From Escherichia coli (GTDB lineage: Bacteria; Pseudomonadota; Gammaproteobacteria; Enterobacterales; Enterobacteriaceae), in assembly GCF_965641715.1 (NCBI RefSeq), contig NZ_OZ282455.1: 64,000 nucleotides of DNA; one strand, written 5' to 3'. Below, one piece after another: positions 1-11,233 of this stretch. Under the pieces are notes generated by a model. The model was given only the letters and a program-made list of their open reading frames with translations, was not told where the DNA came from and did not search any database. Position numbers and translations under genes: made by a program. How positions within the stretch are numbered: position 1 is the stretch's first letter; each line of letters starts with the position of its first letter.

Positions 1-1077
1 GTGTATAAATACACGGCACAATCGCTCCGCCATAAGCGACAGCTTGTGGCAGGTCTGAAGAATACTCCATATAACGCAGTACACTGGAGTCAGTTAGCAC
101 CCGAAGAGCAGATCCGTTTCTGGGAAGACTATGAAGCGGGAAGGGCGACCACTTTCCTGGTTGAACCGGAAAGGAAGCGCACGAAGCGTCGTCGTGGTGA
201 GCACTCCACCAAACCCAAATGCGAAAATCCGTCCTGGTATCGTCCTGAGCGCTATAAGGCGCTGAGCGGGCAGCTCGGGCACGCCTACAACCGTCTGGTG
301 AAAAAGGACCCGGTGACCGGCGAGCAGAGCCTGCGCATGCACATGTCTCTGCATCCTTTTTACGTGCAGAAACGAACGTATGCCGGTCGCAAATATGCTT
401 TCCGTCCGGAAAAACAACGCCTCCTCGATGCCGTCTGGCCGGTTCTGGTCAGCTTCAGTGATGCGGGCACACATACCGTAGGCATGAGTGTTTCCCGTCT
501 GGCCAGAGAAATCAGCCCGAAAGACAGCAAGGGGAAGGTTATTCCGGAACTGGAAGTGACGGTCTCCCGCCTTTCCCGTTTGCTGGCCGAACAGGTACGT
601 TTTGGTGTGCTGGGTGTTTCAGATGAAACCCTGTGGGACCGTGAAACCCGCCAGCGTCTGCCACGCTACGTCTGGATAACACCGGCAGGCTGGCAGATGC
701 TGGGCGTCGACATGGTAAAACTTCACGAACAGCAGCAGAAACGACTGCGTGAAAGTGAAATCCGCCAGCAGCTCATTCGGGAAGGTGTTCTGCGTGAGGA
801 TGAAGATATCTCCGTACATGCGGCCAGAAAACGCTGGTATCTGCAGCGCAGTCAGGATGCGCTGAAACACCGTCGTGCGAAAGCAGCAGCCAGTAAGCGC
901 GCCAGACGCCTGAAGAAACTGCCTGCCGACCAGCAGATTCATGAGATGGCAGAGTATCTCAGGAAGCGTCTGCCTCCGGATGAAGCCTATTTTTGTTCCG
1001 ATGACCATCTGAAGCGAATGGCCATCAGGGAGTTGCGTCAGCTTGAACTGACGCTGGCTGCCCCGCCACCGCACTAG
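1..1077 (+). CDS. plasmid replication initiation protein (IncFII-RepA/RepZ-like family); 5' end may lie upstream of window
   Basis: ORF begins at window edge (GTG), 358 aa, basic C-terminus; followed by ~900 bp non-coding origin-like region with DnaA box; family assignment by motif-level resemblance only. Confidence 0.5.
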   Translation: MYKYTAQSLRHKRQLVAGLKNTPYNAVHWSQLAPEEQIRFWEDYEAGRATTFLVEPERKRTKRRRGEHSTKPKCENPSWYRPERYKALSGQLGHAYNRLVKKDPVTGEQSLRMHMSLHPFYVQKRTYAGRKYAFRPEKQRLLDAVWPVLVSFSDAGTHTVGMSVSRLAREISPKDSKGKVIPELEVTVSRLSRLLAEQVRFGVLGVSDETLWDRETRQRLPRYVWITPAGWQMLGVDMVKLHEQQQKRLRESEIRQQLIREGVLREDEDISVHAARKRWYLQRSQDALKHRRAKAAASKRARRLKKLPADQQIHEMAEYLRKRLPPDEAYFCSDDHLKRMAIRELRQLELTLAAPPPH

Positions 1078-1079
1078 AC

Positions 1080-1980
1080 AGCACCATTCCCTCAGCACTG
1101 AATCATCACCAGCCCCTCCGGGGCTTTCGGCGCTGGTTCCGCTCAGCCCAAAATCCGCAGTAATCACCTTAAATCCCCTCAGAGGGGCATATCTGCCCAT
1201 AAAACCACGCATCAGTCATCAGAACATGGCCACGTTGTTTCAGTTATCCACATAAATCCGCAAACAAAGAACTTTAAGAAGCTGCAAACCTGAAACAGCA
1301 AACCTGCAATATAGTCTTAACCCCATTATTTAATCCCCTGCGTTGCTTCGCCGCAGGGAAAATCTTTATCTCTGAGACCACTGTGAACAAATACAAAGAG
1401 GCCTTCGCTTGCAGCGGCCAAGGCCGCGCCGCTCAGAATCTAAAAGCACCTCCCACGCTGACGCGCGGGCCCCGAACCTCACCGTTCTGAAACCACAACA
1501 AAAAAACATCAGGAATAAAAACACCACACAAACGCAGCACCGTGCCCACCCCTCATAACTGAAAAGCGAGGCCGCCCCCGCCCAAAGGGCGGGAACAACA
1601 TCGCTTTTAATTATGAATGTTGTAACTACACCTCATCATGGCTGTCAGTGTTCTGGCTGGAAGTATCGAGTACACGCTCGTAAGCGGCCCTAACGGCCCG
1701 CTAACGCGGAGATACGCCCCGACTTCGGGTAAACCCTCGTCGGGACCACTCCGACCGCGCACAGAAGCTCTCTCATGGCTGAAAGCGGGTATGGTCTGGC
1801 AGGGCTGGGGATGGGTAAGGTGAAATCTATCAATCCGTACCGGCTTACGCCGGGCTTCGGCGGTTTCACACCTGTGCTACATGTAACCACCGTATGCCGC
1901 CTTACATGCGCTGACGCGCATTATTTGCCTTGTTCCGTCTGAAAGTAATCACTATGATTAAATATGATTAACAACTAATC
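1080..1980. other. putative replication origin/control region downstream of rep
   Basis: Non-coding; DnaA-box TTATCCACA at 1244-1252; GC-rich hairpin cccgccc-aaag-ggcggg around 1566-1590; position relative to rep matches IncFII/I-complex oriR layout. Confidence 0.35.
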
Positions 1981-1984
1981 GGAT

Positions 1985-2269
1985 ATGCAAATGAAAAACA
2001 ATACCGCACAGGCAACAAAAGTCATTACCGCGCATGTGCCATTACCTATGGCTGATAAAGTCGACCAGATGGCCGCCAGGCTGGAACGCTCCCGGGGCTG
2101 GGTTATCAAACAGGCGCTTTCTGCATGGCTTGCCCAGGAGGAGGAGCGTAATCGCCTGACGCTGGAAGCCCTGGACGATGTGACATCCGGACAGGTTATC
2201 GACCATCAGGCTGTACAGGCCTGGGCGGACAGCCTCAGTACTGACAATCCGTTACCGGTGCCACGCTGA
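1985..2269 (+). CDS. ribbon-helix-helix antitoxin (ParD/RelB-like, YacA-like)
   Basis: 94 aa; stop overlaps start of downstream RelE/ParE-like toxin (TGATG); typical antitoxin-first operon. Confidence 0.6.
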   Translation: MQMKNNTAQATKVITAHVPLPMADKVDQMAARLERSRGWVIKQALSAWLAQEEERNRLTLEALDDVTSGQVIDHQAVQAWADSLSTDNPLPVPR

Positions 2270-2544
2270 TGGAACTGAAGTGGACCAGTAAGGCGCTTTC
2301 TGATTTGGCGCGGTTATATGATTTTCTGGTGCTGGCCAGTAAACCTGCGGCCGCCAGAACGGTGCAATCCCTGACACAGGCACCGGTCATTCTGTTAACT
2401 CATCCACGTATGGGAGAACAGTTGTTTCAGTTTGAACCCAGGGAAGTCAGACGGATTTTTGCTGGCGAGTACGAAATCCGTTACGAACTTAATGGCCAGA
2501 CTATTTATGTATTGCGCCTGTGGCACACACGAGAAAACAGGTAG
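2269..2544 (+). CDS. RelE/ParE-family toxin (YacB-like)
   Basis: 91 aa; C-terminal ...YEIRYELNGQTIYVLRLWHTRENR typical of RelE/ParE fold; translationally coupled to upstream antitoxin. Confidence 0.7.
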   Translation: MELKWTSKALSDLARLYDFLVLASKPAAARTVQSLTQAPVILLTHPRMGEQLFQFEPREVRRIFAGEYEIRYELNGQTIYVLRLWHTRENR

Positions 2545-2573
2545 ATTGTGTGTGGGGACAACTTAACATAGCC

Positions 2574-2654
2574 GGGGTCGTTTGCGGGAGAGGGCGAAAT
2601 CCTACGCTAAGGCTTTGGCCAACGATATTCTCCGGTAAGATTGATGTGTTCCCA
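2574..2654. repeat. Tn5393 terminal inverted repeat (strB-proximal end)
   Basis: Sequence recalled from Tn5393/RSF1010 strB-flanking region; Tn3-family GGGG start. Confidence 0.65.
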
Positions 2655-2679
2655 GGGGATAGGAGAAGTCGCTTGATAT

Positions 2680-3516
2680 CTAGTATGACGTCTGTCGCAC
2701 CTGCTTGATCGCGGCCGCGATAGCTAGATCGCGTTGCTCCTCTTCTCCATCCGCGTTCCAAGCTGCGGAAAGGCACCCATAAGCGTACGCCTGGTCGAGC
2801 AGGCGACGCGGATCGACGTCCAGCGCACGAGAGAATGCGTCCGCCATCTGTGCAATGCGTCTAGGATCGAGACAAAGGTCGTCTCTGTCAGCCGGATCGT
2901 AGAACATATTGGCGGCGCCAAAGCCCACTTCACCGACCAGACCGACGGGATCTATCACCAGCCAGCCGCGACTGGAGAACATGATGTTTTCATGATGCAG
3001 ATCGCCATGTAGCCCACGCAGTTCCGAGGCATTGCTCATCATTTGATCGGCTATAATCGCCGCGTGGACGTAGTCAGTTTGACAACCTGCGTTTTGATCA
3101 TCGCGCGCCCGCTGAAACAAAGCTGCAAAGCGATCCCGGATCGGGAGAAGGGCAGAAGGCAGGGGTTCCTCAGATGCGGCATACAGCTTCGCCATTAGTT
3201 CCGCTGCAATTTCGGTCGCCTGGTAGTCGCCGTGCTCGGCAACGATGTGAGAGAGCATTCGCTCCCCGGCATATTCGAGCAACATCAGATTGTTCTCACG
3301 ACCGAGCAACCGGACTGCTCCCCTCCCATTGCGCCATACCAGATAGTCGGCCCCGCGCAGTTCATCAGCAATGTCTTCTATAGGTTTCAATCCCTTGACG
3401 ATTGCAGGAGTCCCGTCTGGCAATGAAACTTTCCAAACGAGGCTGGAAAAGGTGTCCGCAATGAGAACAGGTTGCGAAACGTGCCAATGAGCAGGAAAAA
3501 CAGGCGGCATGAACAT
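2680..3516 (-). CDS. strB: aminoglycoside 6-phosphotransferase APH(6)-Id (streptomycin resistance)
   Basis: Translation from internal Met MFMPPVFPAHWHVSQPV... to ...AAAIKQVRQTSY matches StrB as recalled. Confidence 0.95.
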   Translation of the reverse strand: MFMPPVFPAHWHVSQPVLIADTFSSLVWKVSLPDGTPAIVKGLKPIEDIADELRGADYLVWRNGRGAVRLLGRENNLMLLEYAGERMLSHIVAEHGDYQATEIAAELMAKLYAASEEPLPSALLPIRDRFAALFQRARDDQNAGCQTDYVHAAIIADQMMSNASELRGLHGDLHHENIMFSSRGWLVIDPVGLVGEVGFGAANMFYDPADRDDLCLDPRRIAQMADAFSRALDVDPRRLLDQAYAYGCLSAAWNADGEEEQRDLAIAAAIKQVRQTSY

Positions 3517-4319
3517 CAACCCCAAGTCAGAGGGTCCAATCGCAGATAGAAGGCAAGGCGTTCGCGGTCGGGGGCTTCGATCCCCAATACATTGAATAGG
3601 ACAGCGAAGGCGCGCTCTGCTTCATCTGGCGCTGCCCAGTTCTCTTCGGCGTTAGCAATCATGAGTGCCAAATCGGCATAGCGATCTGCTGTTCCGAGCC
3701 GCCCAAGGTCGATCAGACCCGTGCATTGAAGAGTTTTAGGGTCCACCATGAAGTTCGGCATGCAGGGATCACCATGGCAAACAACCATATCGGTGCGCTC
3801 TTGGTCGAGCCGCACCGGTAGCTCTCGTTCGACACGAGCCAAAAGATCGAGCTGCGGCGTACTCTTGTCCTCGTCCGGTAAGAAGTCGGGATTGACGGCA
3901 TTGCGGGACACCACATCAACGGCGCGTCCGAACATTCGCGACAGCCTGCGCTCAAACGGACATTGATCAACCGATAGGCTGTGAACAGCGCCAAGTTGCT
4001 GCCCCATTGACGGCCACGCTTTGAGCAAATCCGCTCCAGACAGATCAGCCGCCGGTACTCCCGGAATTGCCGTTATCACCAAGCATGCACCCTCCTGTTC
4101 CTCCTGCCAGTTGATCACCTCGGGGCAAGCCACACCTCGACCTTTGAGCCAAATGAGGCGGTCACGCTCTCCAGCGAGCTCACCGCGGCGGGAAGCAGGT
4201 GCGATTTTCGCGAAGGCATGCCCGTCACCACGTCGAAAAACAAAATCACCAGATTCTCCGCCTCTGACAGGCAACCAGTCAGAATGCGATTCACCAAAAA
4301 AAATATTAGTTCGATTCAA
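3516..4319 (-). CDS. strA: aminoglycoside 3''-phosphotransferase APH(3'')-Ib (streptomycin resistance)
   Basis: Translation (L/M)NRTNIFFGESHSDWLPVRGG...RLDPLTWG matches StrA; TTG start at 4319; six-frame ORF extends artificially upstream to 4505. Confidence 0.93.
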   Translation of the reverse strand: MNRTNIFFGESHSDWLPVRGGESGDFVFRRGDGHAFAKIAPASRRGELAGERDRLIWLKGRGVACPEVINWQEEQEGACLVITAIPGVPAADLSGADLLKAWPSMGQQLGAVHSLSVDQCPFERRLSRMFGRAVDVVSRNAVNPDFLPDEDKSTPQLDLLARVERELPVRLDQERTDMVVCHGDPCMPNFMVDPKTLQCTGLIDLGRLGTADRYADLALMIANAEENWAAPDEAERAFAVLFNVLGIEAPDRERLAFYLRLDPLTWG

Positions 4320-4425
4320 TGGAGGTTCCTTCAGTTTTCTGATGAAGCGCGGAGGTGGCTCAACCTGCGAAAAGAAACGAGTTGCTATGGACTTGCACCG
4401 GTTGTGTTCCGGTCTATCTCTCATT

Positions 4426-5283
4426 TTAAGCGGCTTTTTTCTCAAATGCCACCGGCGATTTCCAGCCGAGTGTTGAATGTCTTCGGCGTGGATTATAAAA
4501 GCCATTTATATATTCGAAGATTGCAATCTCAATATCTCGCCTTGTTTGCCAGTGTCTGCGCCAAATCAACTCAGCCTTTAATGATTTAAAGAAGCTTTCT
4601 ACTGCGGAGTTATCAAAACAATTGCCTTTCCCGCTCATGGACGGCAGCAATTGATGTTTGAGCAGTAGCTTTTGATATTCATGAGCGCAATATTGGCTCC
4701 CACGGTCTGTGTGTTGAATACAACCCGGTGGTGGTTTGCGTAAAGCCAACGCCATATTCAGTGCCCTTAATGCAAGATCCTGCTTTAATCGATCACCTGT
4801 TGCCCAGCCAATCACGCGACGGGAATACAGGTCAAGGATAACAGCAAGATAGACCCATCCTTCTCTGGTCCAAACATAAGTGATATCGCCTGCCCATTTC
4901 TGGTTGGGTGCGCTTGCGCTAAAGTCTTGTTTTAATAGGTTCGGTGCAATGTTGAAGGTATGATGACTATCCGTTGTCCGTTTGAATTTACGCGTTCGAA
5001 CAACTGTAATGTTATTCTGGCGCATCAAACGTCCAACCCGACGCTGCCCAACCTGCAGGCCCAGCGCTTTCAACTCTTCTGTCATACGCGGCCTACCATA
5101 GCTCCCCAAACACAACCGATGCTGCTCACGTATATGCGCTAGAAGTATAAGATCACGACGCTGGCGCAGTGATGGAGGACGGCGTTTCCATGCACGTAAA
5201 CCACGATCTGTTACGCCCATCAAACGACATATGCGTGAACGTGAGAGAGAGCCACGGTAATCCGTAATAAACTGAAATCTCAC
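4426..5283 (-). CDS. IS3-family transposase OrfB (DDE integrase domain)
   Basis: 285 aa; motifs ...NQKWAGDITYV...HTDRGSQY...NSAVESFF... typical IS3 OrfB; start overlaps orfA stop. Confidence 0.85.
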   Translation of the reverse strand: MRFQFITDYRGSLSRSRICRLMGVTDRGLRAWKRRPPSLRQRRDLILLAHIREQHRLCLGSYGRPRMTEELKALGLQVGQRRVGRLMRQNNITVVRTRKFKRTTDSHHTFNIAPNLLKQDFSASAPNQKWAGDITYVWTREGWVYLAVILDLYSRRVIGWATGDRLKQDLALRALNMALALRKPPPGCIQHTDRGSQYCAHEYQKLLLKHQLLPSMSGKGNCFDNSAVESFFKSLKAELIWRRHWQTRRDIEIAIFEYINGFYNPRRRHSTLGWKSPVAFEKKAA

Positions 5284-5533
5284 AGCTTTTGTACTGCGAA
5301 AAATATTGCTGCCTTTTTTAATATCTCCCTCTCCTCCCGAAGGATACGGTTCTCTTTGCGTAAACGTTCATTCTCACGCAGAAGATCAGTGTCTTGGGTA
5401 GGAATTTTAGTTTCATCGGAAATTGATGCGATCCATTTCCCAAGCGTGGAAAGCCCAATACTTAAATCTGACGCAACTTGACGGCGTGTTAAGCCACTAG
5501 TGAGTGCTATGCGAACTGCATCACGCTTAAATT
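5280..5533 (-). pseudogene. IS3-family OrfA, N-terminally truncated
   Basis: HTH/leucine-zipper OrfA-like sequence ...FKRDAVRIALTSGLTRRQVASDL... without start; upstream in-frame codons are encoded by the Tn1722-like IR. Confidence 0.55.
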
Positions 5534-5571
5534 GGGGAGCCCGCAGAATTCGGAAAAAATCGTACGCTAAG
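5534..5571. repeat. Tn1721/Tn1722-type 38-bp terminal inverted repeat (tnpA end)
   Basis: GGGGAGCCCGCAGAATTCGGAAAAAATCGTACGCTAAG. Confidence 0.85.
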
Positions 5572-6283
5572 GTTTTCCGGGCATCCGTAAGGGCCGAAAC
5601 TTCCCGTCTTCCAGTCTGCGGCTCTGCCGCCAGACGTAATCGCCGGTTAGGTTGATGTGCTCCCAGCCCAGCGGCGACAGGAATTGCAGCAGCTCGCCGT
5701 CCACCGGCTTGCCGGCCTCGACCAACCCCTGGGTGGCGCGTTCCAGGTACACCGTGTTCCACAGCACGATAGCCGCCGTCACCAGGTTGAGGCCGCTGGC
5801 CCGGTAGCGCTGCTGCTCGAAGCTCCGATCCCTGATTTCCCCAAGGCGGTTGAAGAACACCGCCCTGGCCAGCGAGTTGCGCGCCTCACCTTTGTTCAGG
5901 CCGGCATGCACGCGGCGGCGCAGTTCAACACTTTGCAGCCAGTCCAGGATGAACAGCGTGCGCTCGATCCGGCCCAGCTCGCGCAGGGCCACGGCCAGTC
6001 CGTTCTGGCGCGGGTAGCTGCCGAGCTTGCGCAGCATCAGCGAGGCGGTGACGGTGCCCTGCTTGATCGAGCTGGCCAGGCGCAGGATGTCGTCCCAGTG
6101 GGCACGCACGTGCTTGATGTTCAGGGTGCCGCCGATCAGCGGGCGCAACGTCGGGTAGGCTTGCACGCCCTGCGGCACGTACAGCTTGGTTTCGCCGAGG
6201 TCGCGGATGCGCGGCGCGAAGCGGAAGCCTAGCAGGTGCATCAGGGCAAAGACGTGATCGGTGAAGCCGGCCGTGTCGGTGTA
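5567..6283 (-). pseudogene. tnpA: Tn1721-like TnpA, C-terminal fragment (split by Tn2 insertion)
   Basis: Translation ...[13 protein letters not shown]...[12 protein letters not shown]... is the Tn21-subfamily TnpA C-terminus; stop inside terminal IR. Confidence 0.85.
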
Positions 6284-6321
6284 GGGGTCTGACGCTCAGT
6301 GGAACGAAAACTCACGTTAAG
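6284..6321. repeat. Tn3-family 38-bp terminal inverted repeat (tnpA end of Tn2)
   Basis: GGGGTCTGACGCTCAGTGGAACGAAAACTCACGTTAAG. Confidence 0.95.
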
Positions 6322-9300
6322 CAACGTTTTCTGCCTCTGACGCCTCTTTTAATGGTCTCAGATGTCCTTTGGTCACCAGTTCTGCCAGCGTGAAGGAATA
6401 ATGGCCGAGCATATTGATATGTCCGTGGCAAAGCGGGGAGAGGCGTGCGATATCTTCATCATTCAGTGTTTCACCCTGCGCCCGGAGATGATCCAGGGCT
6501 GCCTGCATATAAATAGTGTTCCATAACACGACGGCGTTAGTGACCAGCCCCAGTGCGCCCAGTTGATCTTCCTGACCGTCGGTATATCGTTTTCTTATCT
6601 CACCTTTTTGACCGTGACAGATGGCTCTGGCAACGGCATGGCGACTTTCTCCCCGATTAAGCTGGGTCAGAATGCGCCGGCGGTAATCTTCATCATCAAT
6701 ATAATTAAGCAGATACAGCGTTTTGTTGATGCGCCCCACTTCAATGATTGCCTGAGTCAGTCCGGAAGGACGTTCACTTTTCAGCAATGAACGGACCAGC
6801 ACTGAAGCCTGTACTTTGCCCAGCTTCAGGGAGCCAGCGGTCCGGATCATTTCGTCCCACTGAAGGACTATTTTTCGGGGATCTGATTGCCCTCTGGCAA
6901 TATCATTCAGCACGCCATAGTCGGCATCATGGTCCATTCGCCAGAAAACCGAAGCACCGGCATCAGCCAGGCGTGGAGAAAACTGGTATCCCAGCAGCCA
7001 GAAAAGGCCAAAGACAAGTTCGCTGGCACCTGCTGTATCGGTCATAATTTCGGTTGGATTCAGCCCGGTCTCCTGTTCCAGAAGACCTTCCAGCACAAAG
7101 ATAGAGTCCCTCAGCGTCCCCGGTATAACGATGCCATGAAAGCCGGAATACTGATCGGACACAAAGTTGTACCAGGTGATCCCTCTGTTATTACCAAAGT
7201 ATTTGCGGTTCGGTCCGGCATTGATTGTTCTGACTGGCGTAACAAAGCGCATTCCATCTGCAGATGCCACTTCTCCTCCACCCCATATCTGTGCCAGTGG
7301 CAGCGTTGCCTGAAAATCAACCAGTCTGGCATTAGCGCTGGTGATAGTTTCAGCCCGCAGATAGTTCGCTTTTGTCCAGTTCAGCCGGTGTCGGGTCAGT
7401 GCAGGAACATTTGATCTGATCAGTGGTTCCAGACCGATATTGCAGGCTTCAGCCATCAGCACGGCGCTGATGCTGACGGGCAGATCATCAACTCTGGCAC
7501 TGGCTTCACTAGCATGGAAAAACTCATCAGCAAATCCGGTATGGGCGTTAATTTCGAGCAGCAACTCCGTTAAATCCACCGGAGGGAGTAGATCACTGAT
7601 CATTTTGCTCAGTCGTTTCAGACTGTCCGGCTCATCAAGACTGGCGAGGGGAGAAATTGTCAACCGGGGCTTCGGGCCAGAAACATCGAGTTCGACAGCC
7701 TCATTTTCGCAAAGACGTGCAGCAACCTGTCTGTAACGACTATCAAGCTGATGACCCAGAGATTTTATTGCTTCCTGCGGGTCTGTCGGGTGCCCCAAAG
7801 AACGATAAACCTTAATCCGGTTTGCCTGCCAGTCAGCACCCTGTAGTAATCTTGCACGAGGATCTCCCCACCGGTTACTGCCGGTAACGTAGACATCCCT
7901 CCGCCTCAGACTATCCTGCAGTTTACTGAGAAAGCAGAGCGTGTATCCCCTGCGGGTGATATGTTTTTCCTTGTTAATCACCAGCCGTTTCCATGACCGA
8001 CTGATAATTTCCGTTGGTGCGTCGTCAAAAAACTGCCGCCGTGAGCTGAACTCCCGGCTGAGGTAGTCACAGGCATTCAGAGTGGTAACCCCGGCAGGTG
8101 CGGATGAAAATTTAACGGTATTCAGCAGATGGGGCAGGAAACGACGAACGCGCCCGTACTGCTCCACCATTTCTTCATGAAAATTATCGTCTGAGGGCCG
8201 GGCAATTTCACGGACAAGCGTGATGATTTCAGCCAGCTTTTGCCTTGGGATGTAGCTGAACACCTCAGCACGAATCGATTCGTCCGGTGTTTCTTCTTTC
8301 AGCAGGTACGAACATGCGCTGGCGAGCGCCAATGCAGATTTATCCAGATCCTTCAGCGAGCGGAGCCGTTTTTTCTGCCCAATCTTTCTGGCGTCACGGA
8401 TGATAACGGCCAGCATGGCGTCCAGAACGTCCAATGCATCATCCAGCGCCAGCGTTTCCCATGCAAGGACAAAGGCAACCAGAACCGCCATCCTTTTCTG
8501 CGGTGACATCCTGGCAATATTGAACACCGAAGTCATACCAGCATAACGTGCGAGATTTTTCAGGCGCACAGCCGGGAGTGTACTCAGGTTTTCAGCATGC
8601 AGGCCAAAATCGTTCAGAGTTTTCCAGCGTTCAATTGCTTCATTAAACGCCGGACCACTGATGGTCACAGGGCCCTTTTTCAGTGATTCCAGTAAAGACA
8701 GGCGGCTGCAATCAGTTGGCCCCAGCAGCATCTCCAGCTGTGAACGCTGTTCGGCTGACGGTATCAGTGCCAGTTTGTTCCACAGGCGCAACGTCGCCTT
8801 TTCCCTTACCTCTGAAATCAACCGGGTCAGCGTAGTGGCTCCGGGGAGAATAATACGATGTTGCATAAGCCACCCTGTCGCCAGATCGAAAAGCAGGCCA
8901 GGACGTTCGTTGCTTATCCAGCTCCGGGTATATAAAAGACGGGTAAGGCGAAATGTCCAGGGCCAGGCAAATTCACGATACTGATAGTGCTGACGTATCA
9001 GCGCTGCATGCTCACGGCGGGTATTTTCCCTCTGACCGTATTCTGCAAGAACGGTGATATCACGAATCCCGAGCTGTCTGGCGGTAAAATGCCGGACGCC
9101 GGAAGGAATATGATTCATATCGGTGAGGAAGGTGCCCAGAAAACGGACACATCCAATTTGCAGGGCAATGCCCAGACGGTTGTGATCACCTCTGCTTTTT
9201 CCGATAAATTCCTTGTCTGCTTCATCAAGGTGAAAATATCGTGCCAGCTGAAGCTCATCCGGTTCACCGGTGAATCTGCCATAGCTTTCAGTCTGCTCAG

Positions 9301-9322
9301 TGGTCAGAAAGTCAACGGGCAT
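6317..9322 (-). CDS. tnpA: Tn3/Tn2 transposase TnpA
   Basis: 1001 aa from MPVDFLTTEQTESYGRF... to ...LKEASEAENVA; six-frame ORF is extended 53 codons upstream. Confidence 0.95.
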   Translation of the reverse strand: MPVDFLTTEQTESYGRFTGEPDELQLARYFHLDEADKEFIGKSRGDHNRLGIALQIGCVRFLGTFLTDMNHIPSGVRHFTARQLGIRDITVLAEYGQRENTRREHAALIRQHYQYREFAWPWTFRLTRLLYTRSWISNERPGLLFDLATGWLMQHRIILPGATTLTRLISEVREKATLRLWNKLALIPSAEQRSQLEMLLGPTDCSRLSLLESLKKGPVTISGPAFNEAIERWKTLNDFGLHAENLSTLPAVRLKNLARYAGMTSVFNIARMSPQKRMAVLVAFVLAWETLALDDALDVLDAMLAVIIRDARKIGQKKRLRSLKDLDKSALALASACSYLLKEETPDESIRAEVFSYIPRQKLAEIITLVREIARPSDDNFHEEMVEQYGRVRRFLPHLLNTVKFSSAPAGVTTLNACDYLSREFSSRRQFFDDAPTEIISRSWKRLVINKEKHITRRGYTLCFLSKLQDSLRRRDVYVTGSNRWGDPRARLLQGADWQANRIKVYRSLGHPTDPQEAIKSLGHQLDSRYRQVAARLCENEAVELDVSGPKPRLTISPLASLDEPDSLKRLSKMISDLLPPVDLTELLLEINAHTGFADEFFHASEASARVDDLPVSISAVLMAEACNIGLEPLIRSNVPALTRHRLNWTKANYLRAETITSANARLVDFQATLPLAQIWGGGEVASADGMRFVTPVRTINAGPNRKYFGNNRGITWYNFVSDQYSGFHGIVIPGTLRDSIFVLEGLLEQETGLNPTEIMTDTAGASELVFGLFWLLGYQFSPRLADAGASVFWRMDHDADYGVLNDIARGQSDPRKIVLQWDEMIRTAGSLKLGKVQASVLVRSLLKSERPSGLTQAIIEVGRINKTLYLLNYIDDEDYRRRILTQLNRGESRHAVARAICHGQKGEIRKRYTDGQEDQLGALGLVTNAVVLWNTIYMQAALDHLRAQGETLNDEDIARLSPLCHGHINMLGHYSFTLAELVTKGHLRPLKEASEAENVA

Positions 9323-10043
<721 letters not shown>

Positions 10044-10149
10044 TACGCCTATTTTTATAGGTTAATGTCATGATAATAATGGTTTCTTAGACGTCAGGTG
10101 GCACTTTTCGGGGAAATGTGCGCGGAACCCCTATTTGTTTATTTTTCTA

Positions 10150-11086
<937 letters not shown>

Positions 11087-11195
11087 CTGTCAGACCAAGT
11101 TTACTCATATATACTTTAGATTGATTTAAAACTTCATTTTTAATTTAAAAGGATCTAGGTGAAGATCCTTTTTGATAATCTCATGACCAAAATCC

Positions 11196-11233
11196 CTTAA
11201 CGTGAGTTTTCGTTCCACTGAGCGTCAGACCCC
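11196..11233. repeat. Tn3-family 38-bp terminal inverted repeat (bla end of Tn2)
   Basis: CTTAACGTGAGTTTTCGTTCCACTGAGCGTCAGACCCC. Confidence 0.95.

What the first reader, a model, noticed from the sequence alone, without database searches (positions are those of the whole stretch)
3516..5533. IS3-family element directly upstream of strA creates a read-through ORF and likely supplies the strA-strB promoter
The strA frame is open upstream to 4505 inside the IS, and orfB ends at 4426 on the same strand. Expression of strA-strB (TTG start at 4319) is therefore probably driven from within or through the IS, as described for IS1133 in Tn5393.
Basis: partly seen in the sequence, partly recalled or inferred. 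Interest (0 to 1): 0.3.

Follow-up and report, generated by a model that had tools for sequence, protein, structure and literature searches.

The report
Truncated IS1133 upstream of strA-strB
This is the well-known streptomycin-resistance gene pair strA-strB from transposon Tn5393 with a broken copy of insertion sequence IS1133 in front of it; the layout is common and already described, and whether the IS drives the genes here is plausible but could not be shown from sequence.

Summary
The coordinates and ORFs are correct. On the minus strand lie strB (2680-3516), strA (3516-4319, TTG start), a 68-bp spacer, and an IS3-family element ending at 5533.

- **What the IS is.** It is IS1133, but only positions 87-1232 of 1232 bp, 100% identical to a full copy. 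A Tn1721/Tn1722-type transposon inserted into it. Its left inverted repeat, the whole region upstream of orfA and the first 7 orfA codons are absent from the window.
- **The 329-aa "read-through ORF".** It exists only mechanically. It starts at an ATG with no Shine-Dalgarno sequence, inside orfB but in another frame. StrA matches its 267-position family model end to end from the TTG.
- **The promoter idea.** It fits what is reported for Tn5393, but stays untested here. The two best sigma-70-like matches upstream of strA lie in the last ~150 bp of the IS, yet score no better than shuffled sequence. The spacer has no convincing match. No terminator separates strA from upstream transcription. The IS's own transposase promoter, if it lies in the missing 5' end as in other IS3 elements, cannot contribute.
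- **How common it is.** The IS1133/Tn1721 junction occurs in 14 PLSDB plasmids and 26 of 5426 complete E. coli genomes.

Ordinary and already known.

The parts
2574..2654 (.). Terminal inverted repeat of Tn5393 at the strB end (the published repeat is 81 bp, from my knowledge); outer boundary of the strAB module against the plasmid backbone, 29 bp after the yacB-like ORF
   Evidence: Sequence GGGGTCGTTTGCGGGAG... read. Database matches to strAB modules begin at 2573-2574. The 81-bp length was not measured here.
2680..3516 (-). strB / aph(6)-Id, 278 aa; its ATG overlaps the strA TGA by one base (TGATG)
   Evidence: NCBIfam APH(6)-I 385.9 bits. Annotated as an 837-bp CDS in identical records. 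Overlap read.
3516..4319 (-). strA / aph(3'')-Ib, 267 aa, TTG start preceded by AAGGA 7 nt upstream
   Evidence: NCBIfam APH_3pp_Ib 1-267 of 267, 637.7 bits. Sequence.
4320..4387 (-). 68-bp spacer: the native 65-bp Tn5393 tnpR-strA intergenic sequence plus TAG, which is the 3-bp IS1133 target duplication and also the tnpR stop codon
   Evidence: A full copy in L001 is flanked by TAG on both sides, and tnpR ends at the IRL. There is no sigma-70-like match better than 5.5 bits.
4388..5533 (-). IS1133 remnant, positions 87-1232 of 1232 bp; cannot transpose by itself (no IRL, no orfA start)
   Evidence: 100% identical to the full 1232-bp copy in NZ_CP029690.
4388..4415 (-). IS1133 right inverted repeat (24 of 28 bases match the IRL of the full copy), outer end at 4388
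   Evidence: IRL and IRR compared by eye from the sequences returned.
4426..5283 (-). IS1133 orfB (DDE transposase part), intact
   Evidence: NCBIfam IS3 family transposase, 337.2 bits.
5280..5533 (-). IS1133 orfA remnant, lacking codons 1-7 and the start codon
   Evidence: Alignment to the full copy. Full OrfA reads MSLKHSDEFKRDAV...; the window begins at ...FKRDAV.
5313..5319 (-). A AAA AAG programmed -1 frameshift motif between orfA and orfB; a hairpin follows at 5301-5278
   Evidence: Motif located. The hairpin was listed as 'terminator-like'. PGAP notes a 'programmed frameshift'.
4423..4452 (-). Best sigma-70-like match upstream of strA: -35 GTGGCA, 18 nt, -10 TAAAAT (overlaps the orfB stop); IS positions 1168-1197; a start site would fall near 4416
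   Evidence: The only hit of the consensus scan and the top PWM score, 8.95. Not above the shuffle maximum (mean 9.7).
4505..4532 (-). Second candidate: -35 TTGAGA, 16 nt, -10 TATAAA
   Evidence: PWM score 8.31.
5534..6283 (-). Tn1721/Tn1722-type 38-bp inverted repeat (5534-5571) and the last 224 codons of its tnpA, reading toward the IS remnant and strA
   Evidence: NCBIfam Tn3 family transposase, profile positions 750-954 of 954. IR located. Identical DNA is annotated 'transposon Tn1721 transposase' in JN102341.
6284..11233 (-). Tn2 (4950 bp, blaTEM) inserted in the Tn1721 tnpA with a 5-bp duplication GTGTA; its tnpA (6317-~9320) also reads toward strA
   Evidence: IRs, duplication, ORFs. 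The Tn3-family tnpA-tnpR-blaTEM-1 annotation comes from the related record.

Best explanation
The region is the right-hand part of a Tn5393-type streptomycin-resistance transposon (IR, strB, strA, native spacer). It is preceded by the 3' 1146 bp of IS1133, in the position and orientation classically seen in Tn5393.

A Tn1721/Tn1722-type transposon inserted into IS1133 between positions 86 and 92. The upstream half (IS head, tnpR, tnpA of Tn5393) was later lost. The remnant cannot transpose by itself.

strA and strB are translated as the normal 267-aa and 278-aa proteins. strA starts at the TTG, and strB is coupled to it through a TGATG overlap.

The spacer has no promoter-like sequence, so their mRNA most likely starts inside the retained 3' end of IS1133. 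The best candidate is -35 GTGGCA / -10 TAAAAT at 4452-4423, about 100 nt upstream of the TTG. Some transcription may also read in from further upstream.

Shown: identity, boundaries, truncation, nesting, and the absence of a terminator or spacer promoter. Inferred: which promoter is used.
For: - Identity and boundaries.
- Tn1721 insertion into IS1133: in AP026747 the two IS halves (1-91 and 87-1232) flank a complete Tn1721-type element with the 5-bp duplication AATTT.
- The spacer is the native tnpR-strA intergenic sequence plus a TAG duplication.
- Of the 2.1 kb upstream on the strA strand, the two highest sigma-70 PWM scores both fall in the last 150 bp of the IS. The best match with its -10 in the spacer scores 5.5 and needs a 19-nt gap.
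- No terminator or stable structure lies between orfB and strA (fold z = 0.2).
- Literature: an IS in Tn5393 raises streptomycin resistance relative to the IS-less form (PMC10333595, citing Sundin and Bender 1995). IS6100 drives strA-strB in Xanthomonas (PMC7986276). Tn5393e, with Tn6023 upstream of strAB, is streptomycin-susceptible. From my own knowledge, unverified here: Chiou and Jones (1995) attributed high expression in Erwinia to a promoter supplied by IS1133.
- About 77% of sampled strA copies in complete E. coli genomes share only 32 bp upstream of the TTG. The gene therefore habitually depends on whatever lies upstream.
Against: - The hexamer matches are not statistically better than shuffled sequence (best 8.95; shuffle maximum mean 9.7, sd 1.6; 1 site found against 2.5 expected).
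- No transcription start, expression or MIC data exist for this arrangement.
- The primary papers on IS1133-driven expression could not be read.
- Natural truncations that keep only 121 or 89 bp of the IS are confounded. They abut IS1 or IS10/ISVsa5, which (from my knowledge) can themselves drive outward transcription.
- Same-strand genes upstream (Tn2 tnpA, the Tn1721 tnpA fragment) could supply read-through.
Confidence: 0.55

Rival explanations
1. Read-through: strA-strB mRNA comes mainly from promoters beyond the IS remnant. Transcripts of Tn2 tnpA, or starts within the Tn1721 fragment, would run through 5534-4388 into strA.
For: All of these genes are on the same strand as strA. Between 6400 and 4320 the scan finds only two weak terminator-like sites. 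One of them, at 5301-5278, is the IS frameshift hairpin.
Against: From general knowledge: Tn3-family tnpA is weakly expressed and repressed by TnpR. About 1.9 kb of largely untranslated RNA (a tnpA fragment without its start, orfA without its start) would be exposed to Rho-dependent termination. No strong promoter-like site lies in 5534-6400.
Confidence: 0.22
2. The genes are poorly expressed or silent in this context, because the Tn5393 res/tnpR promoter and the IS 5' end are both gone.
For: There is a precedent: Tn5393e carries intact strAB yet confers no streptomycin resistance (Cain and Hall 2011, as reported in PMC10333595). No statistically convincing promoter was found.
Against: The same IS1133(87-1232)-strAB module persists unmutated, at 100% identity, in 14 plasmids and 26 E. 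coli genomes from many hosts. That fits, but does not prove, a selected function.
Confidence: 0.1
3. An IS-independent promoter lies in the 68-bp spacer downstream of the IS boundary.
For: A TTGAGC hexamer lies at 4363-4358.
Against: Its best partner is AAAACT at a 19-nt spacing, score 5.5. The majority sul2-strA type keeps only 32 bp upstream of the TTG and so lacks that hexamer. From my knowledge of Sundin and Bender 1995, the IS-less Tn5393 promoter maps to res, far upstream.
Confidence: 0.06
4. The 329-aa ORF (4505-3516) is translated, giving StrA an IS-encoded 62-aa N-terminal extension.
For: The frame is open from ATG 4505.
Against: There is no Shine-Dalgarno sequence before ATG 4505 (the upstream sequence is TTCGAATATATAA). 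The family model of 267 positions aligns from the TTG. An AAGGA box sits 7 nt before the TTG. An open stretch of 62 codons has about a 3-5% chance expectation. No inspected annotation calls the long form.
Confidence: 0.02

Closest known systems
Tn5393 of Erwinia amylovora pEa34 (IS1133 between tnpR and strA; called 'Tn5393a' in the Cain and Hall nomenclature). A complete example was examined here in E. coli pSD134209-1, NZ_CP029690.
   Same: Same IS, same orientation, same insertion point (TAG duplication at the tnpR stop), same 68-bp distance to the strA TTG. Identical sequence from IS position 87 through strB and the IR.
   Different: The window lacks IS1133 positions 1-86 and all of tnpR, res and tnpA. 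A Tn1721-type IR abuts the break.
Tn5393::IS1133::Tn1721 nesting, as in E. coli pO165_PV06-71_1 (AP026747), plus 13 other PLSDB plasmids and 26 complete E. coli genomes with the same junction
   Same: The junction IS1133(87)|GGGGAGCCCGCAGAATTC... is identical.
   Different: In AP026747 the other IS half, tnpR and tnpA are still present beyond Tn1721. In the window they are gone. The Tn1721-type element carries Tn2 and is flanked by AAATT and TTCTT, so it has no target duplication. The combination with Tn2 was not found in either collection.
R64-type Tn5393l/h/i (Tn10 inserted in IS1133) and the IS1-truncated variant (pHZ13-NDM)
   Same: An IS1133 3' remnant is retained directly upstream of strA. 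R64 is described as streptomycin-resistant through strAB (PMC4541600).
   Different: Only 89 or 121 bp of the IS is kept. The R64 type also has a different IS-strA junction, with 25-29 bp of the tnpR 3' end repeated.
Tn5393b (IS6100 in tnpR), and other IS-activated resistance genes in general
   Same: An IS upstream in the sense orientation is reported to raise strA-strB expression.
   Different: It is a different IS family (IS6) at a different position. For IS1133 the promoter was not mapped in any source I could read.
RSF1010-type sul2-strA-strB
   Same: Identical strA-strB and the last 32 bp upstream of the TTG.
   Different: No IS is present. strA follows sul2, and this is the majority context in E. 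coli (about 77% of sampled records).

Membership tests
IS1133 (IS3 family) | Transposase of the IS3 family (OrfA plus a DDE OrfB) | tested here: met
   NCBIfam transpos_IS3: orfB 337.2 bits (cut-off 160); the orfA remnant matches profile positions 1-84.
IS1133 (IS3 family) | Programmed -1 frameshift (A AAA AAG) joining orfA and orfB | tested here: met
   Motif at 5319-5313 with a downstream hairpin. PGAP notes a 'programmed frameshift' in a related copy.
IS1133 (IS3 family) | Near-identity to IS1133 over its length | tested here: met
   100% identity over positions 87-1232 to a 1232-bp copy that PGAP labels IS1133. The GenBank M96392 reference itself was not available for comparison.
IS1133 (IS3 family) | Both terminal inverted repeats (TG...CA) and a 3-bp target duplication, i.e. 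a complete mobile element | tested here: not met
   Only the IRR (4388-4415) and the right-hand TAG are present. The IRL and the first 86 bp are absent from the whole window. It is a remnant of IS1133, not an intact member.
Tn5393 (Tn3 family) | strA-strB next to the Tn5393 terminal inverted repeat | tested here: met
   IR at 2574-2654, strB and strA. Matches to Tn5393-bearing records are 100% identical.
Tn5393 (Tn3 family) | tnpA, res, tnpR and the second inverted repeat | tested here: not met
   BLAST of the Tn5393 tnpR/tnpA regions from L001 and L004 against the window gave no hits. It is a Tn5393 fragment only.
IS-supplied outward promoter for a resistance gene | IS immediately upstream, in the sense orientation, with no terminator in between | tested here: met
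IS-supplied outward promoter for a resistance gene | Recognisable -35/-10 elements in the IS end facing the gene | tested here: inconclusive
   GTGGCA-18-TAAAAT (4452-4423) and TTGAGA-16-TATAAA (4532-4505) are the best matches in 2.1 kb, but they fall within the shuffle range.
IS-supplied outward promoter for a resistance gene | A mapped transcription start in the IS, and IS-dependent resistance level | not testable with these tools
   This needs 5'-RACE, reporter fusions or MICs. Secondary literature reports only higher resistance when an IS is present.

The most novel reading that the evidence does not exclude
The last ~90 bp of IS1133 (IS positions ~1144-1232, window 4476-4388) may hold an outward promoter overlapping the orfB stop codon that no source I could read maps, and this may be the unit actually selected. 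That would explain why four different interruptions all preserve this segment next to strA: Tn1721 at IS position 87, IS903 about 930 bp from the IS right end, IS1 at position 1112, and Tn10/IS10 at position 1144.
Probability: 0.3. Interest if true: 0.2.

Novelty: already known. Interest (0 to 1): 0.08.

Why it matters
The matter is practical rather than conceptual. Resistance prediction from genotype assumes that strA-strB is expressed. Tn5393e shows that intact strAB can be phenotypically silent when cut off from a promoter. Knowing whether the IS1133 3' remnant alone suffices would tell annotators when an IS1133-strAB module should be scored as conferring streptomycin resistance. Otherwise this is a routine mosaic of nested transposons on an IncI-type resistance plasmid.

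Tried and rejected
- **Primary papers.** Chiou and Jones 1993 and Sundin and Bender 1995 were requested by PubMed id and PMC id and are not held. Cain and Hall 2011 is known to me only through citations in other papers. Eight full-text searches found no paper that maps an IS1133 promoter.
- **Tn5393e sequence.** GU562437 is not in the collections. The Tn6023 insertion point relative to strA therefore could not be checked.
- **Promoter prediction as proof.** Both the consensus scan and my PWM scan give best hits inside the IS, but not above shuffles. I rejected them as evidence of function.
- **Natural truncation series as a deletion analysis.** Variants keeping 121 bp (IS1-cut) or 89 bp (Tn10-cut) of the IS exist. 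They abut IS1 or IS10, which may themselves drive outward transcription, so the series does not discriminate.
- **A hybrid promoter across the IRR/spacer boundary.** The best score is below 0. Rejected.
- **A terminator or structured leader between orfB and strA.** None was found.
- **The missing IS head and Tn5393 tnpR/tnpA elsewhere in the window.** Absent.
- **The source plasmid.** No record in PLSDB or the complete E. coli genomes carries both junctions together.
Full report
**Observation**

- A 329-aa ORF runs from ATG 4505 to 3516.
- An IS3-type orfB ends at 4426.
- A TTG at 4319 starts a 267-aa product.

That product matches the NCBIfam APH(3'')-Ib model over 1-267 of 267 positions (637.7 bits, cut-off 600). 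The next gene, 2680-3516, is APH(6)-Id (strB). Its ATG overlaps the strA stop codon in TGATG. The orfB product is an IS3-family transposase (337 bits).

**What the IS is**

A megablast against PLSDB shows the region is 100% identical to many plasmids. PGAP annotates the matching sequence there as an "IS3-like element IS1133 family transposase".

I aligned the window to a complete Tn5393-type copy (E. coli pSD134209-1, locus L001) and extracted that IS. The results are:
- The full element is 1232 bp and is bounded by imperfect inverted repeats: TGGACTTGCCTCGG... at the left end and ...CCGGTGCAAGTCCA at the right end.
- It is flanked by a 3-bp duplication, TAG, which is the stop codon of Tn5393 tnpR.
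- The window carries positions 87-1232 only (4388-5533), without a single mismatch.

The IS therefore ends 68 bp before the strA TTG. The spacer is the native 65-bp tnpR-strA intergenic sequence plus the duplicated TAG.

Missing from the window are the left inverted repeat, all 64 bp upstream of orfA, and the first seven codons of orfA. In other IS3-family elements the transposase promoter lies in that left end (my knowledge; not mapped for IS1133). The remnant retains the A AAA AAG frameshift site (5319-5313) and an intact orfB. It cannot make transposase from its own start codon, and it has only one end.

**How it was broken**

At 5534 the sequence becomes GGGGAGCCCGCAGAATTCGGAAAAAATCGTACGCTAAG. 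This is followed by the last 224 codons of a Tn3-family transposase. Identical DNA is annotated as Tn1721 transposase in JN102341, and PGAP labels it TnAs1 family.

In E. coli pO165_PV06-71_1 (AP026747, locus L004) the same junction is present. There, on the far side of a complete Tn1721/Tn1722-type unit (tnpA, tnpR, chemotaxis-like gene), lie IS1133 positions 1-91 followed by Tn5393 tnpR and tnpA. The pentanucleotide AATTT is present on both sides. A Tn1721-type transposon therefore transposed into IS1133 inside Tn5393.

In the window this element (5534-16128) also carries Tn2:
- Tn2 spans 6284-11233, is 4950 bp, and carries blaTEM.
- It has a perfect 5-bp duplication, GTGTA.
- The outer flanks of the Tn1721-type element do not match (AAATT versus TTCTT).

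The IS head and the Tn5393 tnpR and tnpA are absent from all 64 kb. They were lost by a later recombination or deletion.

**How common it is**
- The IS1133(87)/Tn1721 junction occurs in 14 PLSDB plasmids and in 26 of 5426 complete E. coli genomes.
- The Tn1721-fragment/Tn2 junction is common; most of the ≥80%-coverage hits (130 genomes in all) are of this type.
- The two junctions together were not found in either collection.

**The "read-through ORF"**

The strA frame is open for 62 codons upstream, directly after an in-frame TAA.
- The stretch overlaps the end of orfB in a different frame, so it is not a fusion with the transposase.
- ATG 4505 is preceded by TTCGAATATATAA, with no Shine-Dalgarno sequence. 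The TTG is preceded by AAGGA at a 7-nt spacing.
- The family model starts at the TTG, and every annotation I inspected uses the 267-aa form.
- An open stretch of this length is expected about 3% of the time at IS composition, or 5% at uniform composition.

I regard it as a by-product of mechanical ORF calling.

**The promoter question**
- The consensus scan of 2500-6400 finds one sigma-70-like site, on the strA strand: GTGGCA, 18 nt, TAAAAT at 4452-4423. It overlaps the orfB stop codon. One site was found against 2.5 expected in shuffles.
- My position-weight scan of the 2.1 kb upstream of strA ranks that site first (8.95) and TTGAGA-16-TATAAA at 4532-4505 second (8.31). Both lie in the last 150 bp of the IS. 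The maximum score in shuffled sequence averages 9.7, sd 1.6.
- The spacer has nothing better than 5.5, and that needs a 19-nt gap. Hybrid sites across the IS boundary score below zero.
- No terminator-like site or unusually stable structure separates orfB from strA (z = 0.2).

Sequence therefore says three things. Transcription must enter strA from IS sequence or from beyond it. The best candidates lie near the IS 3' end. Prediction cannot establish that they function.

**Literature**

The primary papers are not held. What I could read is this:
- A 2023 review states that an IS in Tn5393 (IS1133 or IS6100) raises resistance relative to the IS-less form (Sundin and Bender 1995). It also states that Tn5393e, with Tn6023 upstream of intact strAB, does not confer streptomycin resistance (Cain and Hall 2011) (PMC10333595).
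- The same review notes that "Tn5393a" denotes the IS-less form in the original naming and the IS1133-bearing form in another.
- A review of the IS6 family states that IS6100 drives strA-strB expression in Xanthomonas (PMC7986276).
- R64, where Tn10 sits inside IS1133, is described as streptomycin-resistant through strAB (PMC4541600).

From my own memory, not verified here: Sundin and Bender placed the IS-less promoter in res, and Chiou and Jones (1995) attributed high expression in Erwinia to IS1133.

**Natural variation**

In complete E. coli genomes, an evenly spaced sample of 60 of the 1814 matching records shows the following upstream contexts for strA:

| Upstream context | Share of sample |
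|---|---|
| Diverges 32 bp upstream of the TTG (sul2/RSF1010 type) | ~77% |
| Full IS1133 3' end | ~8% |
| tnpR-strA without an IS | ~5% |
| Only 89 bp of the IS, next to ISVsa5/IS10 | ~5% |
| Only 121 bp of the IS, next to IS1 | ~3% |

The truncated forms were examined further. Both short remnants retain the 4452-4423 candidate. Their new neighbours may themselves drive outward transcription (my knowledge of IS10 pOUT and IS1), so this is suggestive only.

**Conclusion**

The finding is a correct description of a known arrangement, with two corrections. The IS is a 5'-truncated, immobile remnant produced by a Tn1721-type insertion. The long ORF is not a gene.

The mechanistic claim is plausible and in line with published work on Tn5393: strAB depends on IS1133 sequence for transcription. 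It is untested for this truncated context. The route from the IS's own upstream region is absent here. The remaining routes are an internal promoter near the orfB stop (my preferred reading, about 0.55) and read-through from the Tn2 and Tn1721 transposase genes (about 0.2). Silence of the genes (about 0.1) cannot be excluded.

Novelty: already known. Interest: low.

Noticed in passing
window 5534-16128: A Tn1721/Tn1722-type transposon (IRs at 5534-5571 and 16091-16128) carries a nested Tn2 (6284-11233, blaTEM ORF 10226-11086). Tn2 has a perfect 5-bp duplication, GTGTA. The outer element is flanked by AAATT and TTCTT, so it has no duplication. This implies recombination between two copies, or an adjacent deletion, that removed the IS1133 head and Tn5393 tnpR/tnpA.
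   Followed up: partly
L006 3062-3120; L007 3286-3345; L009 (minus strand): A second IS1133-strA junction type occurs in E. coli, associated with R64/Tn10. The IS right end reads ...GGTGCAAG|ACCATGGAAAGCATGTTCTCGGACTTACGTAG|CAACTC. The last 4 nt of the IRR differ, and 25-29 bp of the tnpR 3' end is repeated on the strA side. The left end nevertheless has the canonical ACGTAG|TGGAC junction. This is not a normal 3-bp duplication, and its origin is unexplained.
   Followed up: partly
window 5547-5549 (L002 CDS 5854-6977; L003 CDS 10853-11976): PGAP annotates the truncated IS1133 transposase as a complete protein (WP_201789284.1). It uses an ATT start located inside the Tn1721 inverted repeat, which is probably an annotation artefact. 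A mechanical 160-aa ORF (5280-5762) likewise fuses the Tn1721 end to the orfA remnant.
   Followed up: no
window 4320-4351 versus E. coli genomes: About three quarters of strA copies sampled from complete E. coli genomes share only 32 bp upstream of the TTG with Tn5393 (sul2-strA type). IS1133-associated copies are a minority, roughly 16% including truncated forms.
   Followed up: partly
window 1-2573: The window starts with an IncI-type replication initiator ORF (1-1077) and a yacA/yacB-like toxin-antitoxin pair (1985-2544). The Tn5393 inverted repeat begins 29 bp after the yacB-like stop. No 5-bp duplication could be assessed, because the other Tn5393 end is missing.
   Followed up: no
window 5278-5301: The only 'terminator-like' hairpin inside the IS remnant sits 12 nt downstream of the A6G slippery site. 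It is more likely the frameshift-stimulating stem-loop typical of IS3-family elements than a terminator.
   Followed up: no
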